Assembly (NCBI RefSeq): GCF_039654945.1
Contig: NW_027361714.1
Coordinates: 43,896,001 to 43,960,000 of the forward strand
Origin: Dendrobates tinctorius
Lineage: Eukaryota
Length of the DNA stretch: 64,000 nucleotides
Reading direction: 5' to 3'
Shown: in pieces, positions 9,001 to 12,000 of the stretch
Numbering within the stretch: position 1 is the first letter of the stretch
How the letters are laid out: the number at the start of each line of letters is the position of its first letter
Position numbers: made by a program

Positions 9001-12000
9001 TTGTATGTTCTCTTCATATTTGTGAGGGTTTCCTCCGGGTTCACCGTTTCCTCCCACACGCCAAACACATACGAATAGGAAATTTAGATTGTGAGCCCCA
9101 ATGGGGACAGTGATGAAGATGTCTGTAAAGTGCTATGGAAATTAATGGCGAGAAAAAAATAAATAAATAATAAAATGGGATAAGGGTACCAAGGTTGACC
9201 CTTTCTTCCAGAAACCCCTACCTAGTTTATATAACGACAAAGATCTAGCTGATATACTAGAACTGTGATGTTCCTTTTCTGGTAAAAGAGATGTTACTCT
9301 TGTCAACCAGTTTATATCATAAGCCTAACACCAACATGGTCGGATATTTGTAATTTTTACACGTGCGGCAGACCCAAGTGTGTCCTCTGTACATACGTCC
9401 GCAAGACAAAAAAAACACTCCCCTATGCAACACAATAAAAGAATGTGTCACATAACATGGAATTAATTGCAGTTCCCCTAATGCTCTATCATGCAGTGAC
9501 GAGTGTCGCTTACAATATTGTGAGATGTCCTGTCACAGATTAGTAGAGATGCTGCTAACACCACCACATGGAATGTATCCGCAGCAGCGCAGCATTTTAT
9601 ACAACATCATAATGGCCGCCTAAACATTATTCCCTTTCTAGATTAATGAAGATAGTACAAAGGTGAAGAATTGGAAAAACAATTTTACCTTGCATTTTGT
9701 TCATTTCAAGCCAGTGACAATATCGACCACCTGGGGGAGCTAGCGGGCTAAAAATAATCCAAAACACAAAACGGACCTGTGTATAGATATAGGATGTTCC
9801 CTACGTATTTTACATGAATAGTCTTTTCTGCCTACACAAGTATAATATGGATCACAGAAAATTATGGAAATGAATGGTATGTTTGGATCCACCACCAGCC
9901 TAATGCTGACTGTCCTCTGACAGAACACATCAAGACATAATGGTCGGACAATTTGAAGACTCGACCCTTTTGTTCCCCAGGAGCTAAGGCAATATCATGG
10001 CTATTTGACAGCAGCTTTCTCACTTCTTAAGTACTAGATTATGGCCCGATGCCATCGCATCGGGAGGATGCGATAGCATCACACCTCTTGCCATGTTAAC
10101 CCTCAACACACACACTCCTCTCACCTTTCACCATCTCCACTCACTCTTTCACTCCACATACGACCCCTTCTCTCACTCCGTCTCTCATACTCACGCCATC
10201 ATCGCCGCTGCTCCATGATCCCCGACATCATCTTCCGCCGCCGCCATCCTGGATCCAGACGTTGTCCACGCCGGCGACATGTTCTTGCGGCGACGCCATC
10301 TTGAGTATCGTGAAATCCCGCGATACTCAAGATGGCGTCGCCGGAAGAACATGTCGCCGGCGTGGACGACATCGGGATCCAAAATGGCGTCGGCGAAATC
10401 TCTCGAGTTTTCGCCGACGCCATTTTGGATCCCGACGTCGTCCTCACCGGCGACATGTTCTTGCGGCGACGCCATCTTGAGTATCGCGGGATTTCGCCGA
10501 TCCAAAATAGCATCGCCGCAGGAACATGTCGCCGGCGTGGATGCCATCGGGATCCAAAATGGCGTCGGCGAAATCTCGCGAGATTTCGCCGACGCCATTT
10601 TGGATCCCGACGTCGTCCTCACCGGCGACATGTTCTTGCGGCGACGCCATCTTGAGTATCGCGGGATTTCGCCGATCCAAAATAGCATCGCCGCAGGAAC
10701 ATGTCGCCGGCGTGGATGCCATCGGGATCCAAAATGGCGTCGGCGAAATCTCGCGAGATTTCGCCGACGCCATTTTGGATCCTGACGTCCTCCACACCGG
10801 CGACATATTCTTGCGGCGACACCATCTTGACTATCGCGGGATTTCGCCGATCCAAAATGGCGTCGCCGCAAGAACATGTCGCCGGCGTGGAGGACGTCTG
10901 GATCCAAAATGGCGCCGGCGGAAGATGTCGGGAATCGTGGATCAGCGGCGATGATGGCGTGAGTATGAGAGACGGAGTGAGAGAAGGGGTCGTATGTGGA
11001 GTGAAAGAGTGAGTGGAGATGGTGAAAGGTGAGTGGAGTGTGTGTGTTGAGGGTTAACATGGAAAGAGGTGTGCGGTGACGTCACCGGTTACAACTGGAC
11101 GGAAGTTGTTACAACCGGAAGCTGCTTAGGGCATTTATTATTATAGATGGAAGAGTCTGGAGAAATAGCTGATGGATAAATGGGGCCATCAGCTACAGCT
11201 CCGTCCCCTTCACAACCTTCCTTGCGCAGCACGACTGGGTGGGCCAAGCGAGCCACTGTGCATGGACATCTAGGAAAAGGACATACAGTGGGTATGGAAA
11301 GTATTCAGACCCCTTTACATTTTTCATTCGTCGCTTCATTGCAGCCATTTGGTAAATTCAAAAAAGGTCTTTTTTTTCTAATTAATGTACACTGCACCTC
11401 ATACTGACTGAAAAAAAACAGAAATATAGAAATTGTTGCAAATGTATTAAAAAAGAAAAACTGAAATATCACATGGTCATAAGTATTCAGACCCTTTGCT
11501 CAGACACTCATATTTAAGTCACATGCTGTCCATTTCCTTGTGATTCTCCTTGAGATGGTTCTACTCCTTCATTGGAGTCCAGCTGTGTTTAATTAAACTG
11601 ATAGGACTTGATTTGTAAAGACACACACTTGTCTATATAAGATCTCACAGCTCATAGTGCATGTCAGACCAAATGAGAATCATGAGGTCAAAGGAACTGG
11701 CCAAGGAGCTCAGAGACAGAATTGTGGCAAGGCACACATCTAACCAAGGTTAAAAAGAATTTCTGAAGTACTCAAGGTTCCTAAGAGCACAGTGGCCTCC
11801 ATAATCCTTAAATGGAAGAAGTTTGGGACCATCGCAAATCTTCCTAGACCTGGTCGTCCAGCAAAACTGAGCAATCGTAGAAGAGCCTTGGTGAGAGAGG
11901 TAAAGAAGAACCCCAAGTTCACTGTGGCTGAGCTCAACAGATGCAGTAGGGAGATGGGAGAAAGTTCCACAAAGTCAACTATCACTGCAGCCCTCCACCA

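What the first reader, a model, noticed from the sequence alone, without database searches (positions are those of the whole stretch)
10034..11147. Helitron carrying a ~1-kb hairpin-of-hairpins CpG island with about 12 YY1 consensus sites
Seen: canonical Helitron ends enclose a near-perfect ~990-bp palindrome with 175-bp internally palindromic units and very little CpG decay. CGCCATnTT or AAnATGGCG occurs about 12 times (for example 10294, 10329, 10381, 10418, 10470, 10556, 10593, 10645, 10731, 10768, 10854, 10906). Known: this is the YY1 consensus, YY1 binding is CpG-methylation sensitive, and Helitrons often amplify internal tandem repeats. Inference: a young mobile homotypic YY1 cluster or orphan CpG island in an HBS1L intron, which would also fold into long dsRNA in the pre-mRNA.
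Basis: partly seen in the sequence, partly recalled or inferred. Interest (0 to 1): 0.65.

Follow-up and report, generated by a model that had tools for sequence, protein, structure and literature searches.

The report
Frog Helitron with palindromic CpG array
A small rolling-circle transposon in a long intron of a poison frog's HBS1L gene carries a CpG-rich, self-complementary repeat full of YY1-type words; this is an unusual cargo, probably selfish, and nobody has tested whether YY1 binds it.

Summary
All 12 CGCCATNTT words lie at the named positions. A 175-bp array of 3.9 copies, whose units are themselves palindromes, lies inside a 994-bp palindrome. That palindrome is 88% self-complementary overall, so "near-perfect" overstates it. 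CpG o/e is 1.4-1.6, against 0.55 for the window.

The Helitron reading is supported. On the minus strand a 20-nt hairpin sits 11 nt before CTAG|T. This is the only such signature in 64 kb and has Helraiser geometry. The same repeat unit abuts a Helraiser-like transposase fragment in another Dendrobates tinctorius gene model.

The window is frog, not human. The element lies in sense orientation downstream of HBS1L exons. An intronic position is inferred.

The 12 sites are not independent. They are two positions per 88-nt half-unit, multiplied by inverted and tandem duplication. Motif columns are no better conserved than their neighbours. CpGs show 2.8-fold excess transition decay. YY1 binding, methylation state, age and copy number remain untested.

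Verdict: a new variant of known kinds, of moderate interest.

The parts
10034..10037 (-). Helitron 3' terminus CTAG. The flanking host T on the minus strand is at 10033.
   Evidence: Read from the sequence. It is part of the only hairpin + CTRR + T signature in the window.
10045..10064 (-). 20-nt 3' subterminal hairpin (8-bp GC-rich stem, 4-nt loop). It ends 11 nt before the element's 3' end.
   Evidence: DNA fold of -9.9 kcal/mol, z = -3.1. The scan gave 1 hit against 0.23 expected. The geometry matches the published Helitron definition (PMC4067079, PMC4778049; passages).
11075..11147 (-). Proposed 5' terminal region. It begins with an A|TC junction at 11148/11147 and an AT-rich start, followed by ETS-like CCGGAAG (11115-11121) and the CRE-like word TGACGTCA (11077-11084).
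   Evidence: Sequence and motif positions. The exact 5' boundary is uncertain by about 30 nt, because there is no second copy or empty site.
10080..10242 (.). Left outer arm of the large palindrome. It is CpG-poor and rich in ACTCAC on the + strand. On the minus strand it reads GTGAG-rich and holds two GTGAGT words.
   Evidence: Inverted repeat I1, 163 nt at 94%. Mismatch list. GTGAGT positions.
10911..11073 (.). Right outer arm of the large palindrome. It holds three GTGAGT words on the + strand.
10229..10927 (.). CpG-rich array of 8 half-units of about 88 nt in alternating orientation, which is 4 palindromic 175-bp units. Each half-unit has two YY1-type positions. Of these 16 positions, 12 are intact.
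   Evidence: TRF; repeats; half-unit alignment A1 at 90% mean identity; motif hits; CpG o/e 1.63.
10404..10753 (.). Most recent event: a tandem duplication of one 175-bp unit. Units 10404-10578 and 10579-10753 differ at 1 of 175 positions.
10574..10583 (.). TCTCGCGAGA exactly at an inverted-junction centre. A second copy lies at 10749-10758. These are the only two in the window.
   Evidence: The palindrome centres fall at 10578/10579 and 10753/10754. I read the word as a by-product of the junction (inference).
52071..52472 (-). Context: two HBS1L exons encoding the HBS1_N domain (aa 37-145 of the Dendrobates tinctorius reference), separated by a short in-frame intron.
   Evidence: Pfam HBS1_N, E = 4.3e-13. 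Exon B is 100% identical over 63 aa to the reference protein P0002. tblastn. Splice sites were read by eye.
30697..31995 (-). Context: the long alternative last exon of the short HBS1L isoform. It is 84% identical to aa 145-574 of Ranitomeya isoform X3.
   Evidence: tblastn. No Pfam family.

Best explanation
This is a non-autonomous canonical Helitron of about 1.1 kb. It is Helraiser/Helibat-like and its sense strand is the minus strand. It lies in sense orientation inside the very long intron that follows the N-terminal exons of HBS1L in a dendrobatid frog.

Only the ends are transposon machinery. These are an A|TC 5' junction and a 3' hairpin 11 nt before CTAG|T, which a RepHel transposase supplied in trans would recognise.

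The cargo is a CpG-rich module that grew by duplication from a short GC-rich seed carrying a CGCCATNTT word. The likely order was sub-repeats within an 88-nt half-unit first, then inverted duplications, then tandem duplication of the resulting 175-bp palindromic unit. The inverted duplications created the palindrome centres, and the TCTCGCGAGA words were made at those junctions. The latest tandem copy differs at 1 of 175 positions.

The 12 YY1-type words are therefore real, but they are the multiplied image of two positions. The same unit sits next to a Helraiser-like transposase fragment at another locus of the same genome, so it belongs to a Helitron family and is not a local oddity.

The most likely role is selfish cargo with promoter-like composition: YY1 words over ATG, ETS and CRE words near the 5' end, and outward-facing GTGAGT words.

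Shown here: the anatomy, the composition, the Helitron link and the gene context. Inferred: the order of duplications, promoter-like activity, YY1 occupancy, intronic dsRNA and any effect on HBS1L.
For: - The 3' end signature is unique in the window: 1 hit against 0.23 expected. The hairpin fold has z = -3.1.
- The geometry equals the published definition: 5'-TC, 3'-CTRR, a 16-20-nt palindrome about 11 bp from the 3' end, and insertion between A and T without a target-site duplication (PMC4067079, passages). Helraiser has a 19-bp palindrome 11 nt upstream of CTAG (PMC4778049, passages). Xenopus Heli1Xen1 has TC...CTAG ends, a TA-rich left end and a CCCG...CGGG-type hairpin (PMC12001565, passages).
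- The stop-free frame through the array matches one protein among 5.8 billion clusters and one among 1.84 billion representatives. This is P0061 of Dendrobates tinctorius, 73% identical over 44 aa.
- P0061 residues 70-298 match the Helraiser transposase 7lcc_A at E = 2.4e-77. Its residues 296-382 map only onto the element, on both strands.
- P0061 and the HBS1L reference lie on contigs of different length, 30.7 Mb and 87.2 Mb.
- Duplication history: H4 and H6 are identical and H3/H5 differ at 1 position, while other half-unit pairs differ at 5-21 positions.
- A shuffled half-unit holds at least one site in 0.6% of 20,000 shuffles and at least two in none. The pair of sites per half-unit is therefore an internal sub-repeat, not chance.
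- Published precedents: tandem arrays inside Helitrons and Helentrons (PMC12001565, PMC4067079) and promoter capture by HelibatN3 (PMC4778049).
Against: - Only one copy is in the window and no empty site was found. The 5' end and mobility therefore rest on a single instance.
- No RepHel gene is in the window. None of the 612 frames scanned by Pfam showed one.
- P0061 is a gene model. Its junction between the transposase part and the array part could be a splice, a deletion or a prediction artefact.
- Because the array is palindromic, its orientation relative to the transposase cannot be read from the protein match.
- No tool here measures promoter activity or YY1 binding.
- The column test for CpG bias among half-units was not significant (p = 0.79), whereas the half-versus-half test was (odds ratio 2.85, p = 0.008). 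The methylation history is therefore ambiguous.
Confidence: 0.65

Rival explanations
1. The element is a young, mobile, homotypic YY1-binding cluster that behaves as an orphan non-methylated CpG island. YY1 occupies the unmethylated sites and protects them.
For: - Twelve exact consensus words. The consensus and the methylation-related gel shifts are documented in PMC1904287 (passages).
- CpG o/e of 1.4-1.6, the strongest CpG-island-like stretch in the window.
- CpG-type decay is only about 2.8-fold above other transitions. This is lower than the roughly tenfold excess I recall for methylated vertebrate DNA.
- Precedents exist for transposons spreading YY1 motifs: a piggyBac-like element in Poecilia picta (PMC10760456, passages) and YY1 sites in tandem L1 Tf monomers (PMC11602158, abstract).
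Against: - The sites are copies of two positions, so their number reflects array growth.
- Motif columns are no more conserved than neighbours: 6 of 18 against 16 of 59, p = 0.77.
- Three of the four degenerate sites lost the motif's CpG by a transition (columns 67 and 68). CpG transitions are in significant excess. Both point to some germline methylation.
- In cold-blooded vertebrates, computed CpG islands often lie away from promoters (PMC3583005, abstract start seen in the listing).
- Two other CpG-rich palindromic transposon copies lie in the same window. CpG richness is therefore not special to this element.
Confidence: 0.25
2. The cargo descends from a captured host CpG-island promoter with its first coding exon and splice donor, as in HelibatN3. 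It was later made palindromic and amplified. In sense orientation in an intron it could start transcripts that splice into downstream HBS1L exons.
For: - On each strand the distal half-unit plus outer arm reads ATG GCG and onward for 17-18 codons, then GC|GTGAGT (read by eye).
- Five of the window's 29 GTGAGT words lie in the two arms, and all point outward.
- ETS-like and CRE-like words lie just inside the 5' end.
- The element is in the same orientation as HBS1L.
- HelibatN3 carries a promoter, six codons and a splice donor, and acts as an exon trap (PMC4778049, passages).
Against: - No parent gene was identified. The only protein match is the Helitron-linked model P0061.
- The arms are low-complexity GTGAG-rich sequence, so donor-like words may be incidental.
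- A 17-codon open frame in GC-rich DNA is expected by chance.
- The donor phase (2) does not fit the phase (1) left by the upstream HBS1L exon (read). No in-frame fusion is predicted.
- No RNA data were available.
Confidence: 0.2
3. The palindrome is a separate foldback or MITE-type element that happens to lie next to Helitron-like ends. Alternatively, the Helitron-like ends are chance.
For: Foldback and MITE-like palindromes do occur in this window, at 50742-51167 and 57612-58057. The 5' A|TC junction alone is weak evidence.
Against: - No target-site duplication flanks the palindrome at 10079/10080 and 11073/11074 (read; mismatches).
- The 3' signature is unique in 128 kb of strand and lies 15 nt from the palindrome.
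- The unit is joined to a Helraiser-like transposase fragment elsewhere.
Confidence: 0.05
4. The palindrome is an assembly artefact, for example from a long read with a missed adapter.
For: Long palindromes with zero spacer are a known artefact class (recalled, not tested here).
Against: - The halves differ at 12% of aligned columns. The units differ from each other in a structured way.
- The ends are asymmetric.
- An independent locus encodes the same unit types.
Confidence: 0.03

Closest known systems
Helraiser/Helibat1 family and its non-autonomous derivatives, especially HelibatN3 (PMC4778049)
   Same: Both have 5'-TC and CTAG-3' ends, a palindrome of about 19-20 nt placed 11 nt from the 3' end, and an A/T target. 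Both are non-autonomous with a non-transposase cargo of promoter-like composition. The linked frog protein P0061 matches the Helraiser transposase at E = 2.4e-77.
   Different: The cargo here is a 994-bp palindrome made of a tandem array of palindromic units. No parent gene is known for it. Terminal sequences could not be compared, because the Helraiser ends are given only in supplementary figures, which are closed.
Xenopus Heli1Xen1 and Helitron-derived tandem arrays (PMC12001565)
   Same: It is a frog canonical Helitron with TC...CTAG ends, a TA-rich left end and a CCCG...CGGG-type hairpin. Tandem arrays overlapping Helitrons are reported there, with monomers of 121-1,996 nt in 2-7 repeats. 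A 175-bp unit in 3.9 copies falls within those ranges.
   Different: The word 'palindrom' does not occur in that paper's main text, and no palindromic units, CpG-island composition or YY1 words appeared in the passages I read. The hairpin sequence differs.
Helentron-associated interspersed elements (HINE/DINE-1) with internal tandem repeats (PMC4067079)
   Same: They are non-autonomous rolling-circle elements in which tandem repeats can occupy about half of the length.
   Different: Helentrons have subterminal inverted repeats, palindromes at both ends and insertion at TT. None of these is seen here.
YY1-site arrays in transposons and imprinting regions: mouse L1 Tf monomers (PMC11602158), the Poecilia picta YY1-bearing piggyBac-like wave (PMC10760456), and Peg3/Xist-type clusters (cited within those papers)
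   Same: Repeated CGCCATNTT-type words sit on tandem units, and a mobile element carries them.
   Different: The carrier here is a Helitron and the sites are arranged as palindromes. No binding, methylation or expression data exist for this element.

Membership tests
Canonical Helitron | 3' end CTRR | tested here: met
   CTAG at 10034-10037 on the minus strand.
Canonical Helitron | 16-20-nt palindrome about 11 bp from the 3' end | tested here: met
   A 20-nt hairpin at 10045-10064 ends 11 nt before the terminus. Fold of -9.9 kcal/mol, z = -3.1. It is the only such signature in the window, against 0.23 expected.
Canonical Helitron | 5' end TC | tested here: inconclusive
   TC is at 11147-11146 on the minus strand and is followed by AT-rich sequence. 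Two more A|TC positions lie within about 30 nt, and no second copy fixes the boundary.
Canonical Helitron | Insertion between host A and T without target-site duplication | tested here: inconclusive
   The flanks read A (11148) and T (10033) on the minus strand, and no duplication is seen. No empty site is available to confirm this.
Canonical Helitron | Termini shared with other copies and with a RepHel-encoding partner | tested here: inconclusive
   No other copy and no RepHel are in the window. The cargo unit is joined to a Helraiser-like transposase fragment in P0061. Termini at that locus could not be read, because no frog genome collection is available.
Helentron / HINE | Subterminal inverted repeats, palindromes at both ends, insertion at TT | tested here: not met
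   The ends are not inverted repeats of each other and the flanks are A and T. The definition is from PMC4067079.
CpG island by sequence criteria | Length over 200 bp, GC over 50%, CpG o/e over 0.6 (thresholds recalled) | tested here: met
   1,114 bp, GC 56%, o/e 1.38; the array alone gives GC 59% and o/e 1.63.
Non-methylated island / orphan CpG island | Absence of DNA methylation in vivo | not testable with these tools
   Only indirect evidence exists. CpG-type transitions are in 2.85-fold excess, p = 0.008, which shows some methylation-type decay.
Clustered YY1-binding region | Several CGCCATNTT words in a short interval | tested here: met
   12 exact words in 620 bp.
Clustered YY1-binding region | Motif positions conserved above their surroundings | tested here: not met
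   6 of 18 motif columns are variable against 16 of 59 other columns, Fisher p = 0.77. This comes from 8 half-units of one element, so power is low.
Clustered YY1-binding region | YY1 occupancy that is sensitive to methylation | not testable with these tools
   No binding data and no YY1 matrix scan were available.
Promoter-capture Helitron (HelibatN3 type) | Identifiable parent gene fragment with promoter, first codons and splice donor | tested here: inconclusive
   An ATG-led short frame and GTGAGT words are present. No parent gene was found.
Foldback / MITE | Target-site duplication flanking the terminal inverted repeats | tested here: not met
   No duplication at the palindrome borders.

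The most novel reading that the evidence does not exclude
A Helraiser-like Helitron family in dendrobatid frogs spreads a self-complementary, CpG-island-like module across a giant genome. The module combines YY1 words, an ATG-led mini-exon and outward splice donors on both strands. Each insertion would seed a partly methylation-resistant, bidirectional promoter and exon trap, together with a long hairpin RNA. In sense orientation inside HBS1L it would start transcripts running into the GTPase-coding exons.
Probability: 0.12. Interest if true: 0.7.

Novelty: new variant of a known kind. Interest (0 to 1): 0.4.

Why it matters
If copies across the frog genome share this cargo, the family would be a natural case of a rolling-circle transposon distributing CpG-island-like, YY1-motif-rich palindromes.

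That bears on three questions:
- how new regulatory CpG islands arise in cold-blooded vertebrates;
- how long palindromes survive in large genomes;
- whether intronic transposon hairpins feed RNA editing or small-RNA pathways.

As a single copy with no functional data, it is for now a well-described structural curiosity.

Tried and rejected
- Other copies or an empty site. blastn of the element and of both flanks against the window found no second copy and no empty site. The only flank match is the inverted repeat of a neighbouring Tc1 element at 11284-12914.
- RNA families. Rfam gave nothing at gathering thresholds in the window. The sub-threshold hits in the element are generic long-hairpin microRNA and small-RNA models, all below their cut-offs. 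No tRNA genes were found.
- Coding potential. All six frames of the array are open, but Pfam finds nothing in two of the long frames of the array, 296 aa (minus strand) and 188 aa (plus strand). The 175-bp period is not a multiple of 3. I read the frames as stop-free because of base composition, not as coding sequence.
- Locating HBS1L. A regular-expression search for GTPase G1 and G3 motifs found none. I then sent stop-free frames instead. Of 713 frames of at least 45 aa, 101 overlapping the element itself or regions already assigned to transposons, and 24 of low complexity, were dropped. The remaining 588 were scanned and gave one HBS1_N hit.
- Missing exons. Exon 1 and the exons after aa 145 of the canonical isoform were not found.
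- Further protein relatives. The 'longer' search with the array frame found nothing among 6,933 candidates. Pfam finds no family in P0061.
- TCTCGCGAGA as a selected site. I rejected this reading because both copies sit exactly at inverted-junction centres.
- Literature. Searches for Helitron with YY1 (8 papers, none on this), with palindromic tandem repeats in fish, with poison frog, with Xenopus, and with CpG island or promoter capture found no description of a Helitron carrying a YY1-word palindromic array.
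Full report
**What is there.**
- The region 10034-11147 is the most CpG-rich stretch of the window. GC is 56% and CpG o/e 1.38; in the array 10229-10927 o/e is 1.63. The flanks give 0.54 and 0.23, and the whole window 0.545.
- Tandem Repeats Finder reports a 175-bp period, 3.9 copies and 92% matches at 10236-10920.
- The repeat finder shows outer inverted arms of 163 nt at 94% (10080-10242 and 10911-11073). Each 175-bp unit is itself a palindrome with a spacer of 0-23 nt.
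- Taken as a whole, the 994-bp palindrome is 88% self-complementary, and its longest perfect complementary stretch is 91 nt.
- As RNA it folds at -928 kcal/mol and is almost fully paired.
The window holds 16 in all, against 1.35 expected, and 0 of 100 shuffles reached 16.
Two qualifications apply. 'Near-perfect' overstates the palindrome. The word count is not a count of independent sites.

**Anatomy of the array.**
- The array is eight half-units of about 88 nt in alternating orientation, aligned at 90% mean column identity.
- Each half-unit has two YY1-type positions, so 16 in all. Twelve are intact.
- The two positions, together with a third word that is one mismatch away, belong to a short GC-rich sub-repeat inside the half-unit.
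- A dinucleotide-shuffled half-unit holds at least one site in 0.6% of 20,000 shuffles and at least two in none. The doubling is therefore internal duplication rather than chance.
- Pairwise differences give an order of events. H4 and H6 are identical and H3/H5 differ at one position, so one 175-bp unit was duplicated in tandem very recently. Other pairs differ at 5-21 of 88 positions. The outer arms differ at 9 of 163.
- TCTCGCGAGA occurs twice in the window. Both copies sit exactly at inverted-junction centres. I read this word as a by-product of the junction.

**Is it a Helitron?**
- The element reads as a Helitron on the minus strand. A host A is followed by TC and an AT-rich start at 11147. 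At the other end a 20-nt hairpin (10045-10064) is followed by 7 nt, then CTAG (10034-10037), then a host T.
- I scanned both strands for a perfect stem of at least 7 bp with a 3-8-nt loop and a 3-11-nt gap, followed by CTRR and T. This found that one site only, against 0.23 expected.
- The geometry matches three published descriptions: the Helitron definition (PMC4067079, passages), the Helraiser ends (PMC4778049, passages) and the style of the Xenopus Heli1Xen1 ends (PMC12001565, passages).
- The 5' boundary is less certain. Other A|TC positions lie within about 30 nt, and the window has no second copy or empty site.
- The strongest independent support came from translating the stop-free minus-strand frame through the array. 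It matches a single protein in 5.8 billion clusters and in 1.84 billion representatives: P0061, an uncharacterized Dendrobates tinctorius protein. Residues 298-341 of P0061 are 73% identical to the array frame.
- Residues 70-298 of P0061 match the Helraiser transposase structure 7lcc_A at E = 2.4e-77. Atlas neighbours are Helitron helicase-like clusters.
- Residues 296-382 of P0061 map only onto the element, on both strands. Residues 1-295 map nowhere in the window.
- So the same unit abuts a Helraiser-like transposase fragment at another locus. The contigs reported for P0061 and the HBS1L reference differ in length, 30.7 Mb and 87.2 Mb.
- P0061 is a gene model. How its two parts are joined is unknown.

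**Gene context and species.**
- A Pfam scan of 588 stop-free frames plus 24 long frames gave one HBS1_N hit, at 52057-52494 on the minus strand.
- One exon (52072-52260, minus strand) was searched alone. It is 100% identical over 63 aa to HBS1-like protein isoform X1 of Dendrobates tinctorius. The window is therefore frog, not human.
- tblastn of the reference proteins places aa 37-145 at 52473-52069. It places the long alternative last exon of the short isoform at 31995-30697, both on the minus strand. Residues 1-36 and 146-679 of the canonical isoform are not in the window.
The joined step was left out.
- The element lies about 19.5 kb downstream of the alternative last exon, in the same orientation as the gene.
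- It is inside the canonical isoform's intron only if the remaining exons lie beyond coordinate 1. That is inferred.

**Does the evidence favour a functional YY1 cluster?**
- For:
  - the words match the documented consensus (PMC1904287, passages);
  - CpG density is high;
  - transposons carrying YY1 sites have precedents (PMC10760456, passages; PMC11602158, abstract).
- Against:
  - motif columns are as variable as the others, 6 of 18 against 16 of 59, p = 0.77;
  - three of the four degenerate sites lost the motif's own CpG by a transition;
  - between the two halves of the palindrome, 20 of 64 aligned CpGs differ and 14 of those have a TpG or CpA partner, while 30 of 363 other sites differ, 15 of them by transition. 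The odds ratio is 2.85, p = 0.008.
- A column test among half-units did not show this CpG bias: 8 of 25 against 14 of 52, p = 0.79. The signal is therefore modest.
- Computed CpG islands are poor guides to unmethylated DNA in cold-blooded vertebrates (PMC3583005, abstract start seen in the listing).
- Two copies of an unrelated CpG-rich palindromic MITE-like element lie in the same window.

**A further reading.**
- On either strand the distal half-unit and outer arm read as an ATG-led frame of 17-18 codons ending at a GTGAGT word (read by eye).
- Five of the window's 29 GTGAGT words lie in the arms, and all face outward.
- ETS-like and CRE-like words sit just inside the 5' end.
- This resembles HelibatN3, which captured a promoter, six codons and a splice donor and acts as an exon trap (PMC4778049).
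- No parent gene was found. The arms are low-complexity sequence. The donor phase does not fit the neighbouring HBS1L exon. This stays a minority hypothesis.

**What stayed unchecked.**
- Genome-wide copy number, shared termini, empty sites, methylation, YY1 binding, RNA editing and small RNAs.

**Verdict.** This is a real non-autonomous canonical Helitron with an unusual palindromic, CpG-rich, YY1-word cargo. It is a new variant of known kinds and of moderate interest. The functional claims remain open.

Noticed in passing
window 50742-51167 and 57612-58057: Two copies of a CpG-rich palindromic MITE-like element. They have GGCTAGTTTCACA-type terminal inverted repeats, arms of 170-218 nt at 88-93% complementarity, and GCGCATGCG words. 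CpG o/e is about 1.0.
   Followed up: partly
window 45498-47616, with 45241-45433 and 47635-48020: A 180-bp satellite of 11.8 copies at 95%, with a 360-bp higher-order period. It is flanked by 193-nt inverted repeats, one pair with zero spacer, and lies just downstream of hAT-type reading frames (41449-44822; zf-BED and hAT dimerisation domains). The architecture is the same 'arms plus internal array' as in the Helitron.
   Followed up: no
window 25720-25770: GCGCATGCGC is followed by two facing YY1-type words in another CpG-rich stretch next to a short hairpin. This is a second place in the window where promoter-type words sit in repeat-like DNA.
   Followed up: no
window 30697-31995 (minus strand): A 433-aa open exon with no Pfam family. 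It is 84% identical to the C-terminal part of Ranitomeya HBS1L isoform X3. It is probably the alternative last exon of the short isoform, which I recall as SKI7-like.
   Followed up: partly
window 10139-10194 (minus strand) and 10959-11034 (plus strand): Five of the window's 29 GTGAGT words lie in the two outer arms, and all point away from the array.
   Followed up: partly
window 11284-12914: A Tc1/Sleeping Beauty-like element with inverted ends of about 220 nt at 87% identity and a decayed transposase. It lies 136 bp from the Helitron's 5' end.
   Followed up: partly
window 23526-25261 and 54282-55295: Two arrays of one tandem repeat of about 390 bp (4.5 and 2.6 copies). Long inverted matches link 20.5-21.0 kb to 23.3-25.2 kb.
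   Followed up: no
window 185-684: A C-rich minisatellite with 24/49/124-nt periods. It explains the strong GC skew of the first kilobase.
   Followed up: no
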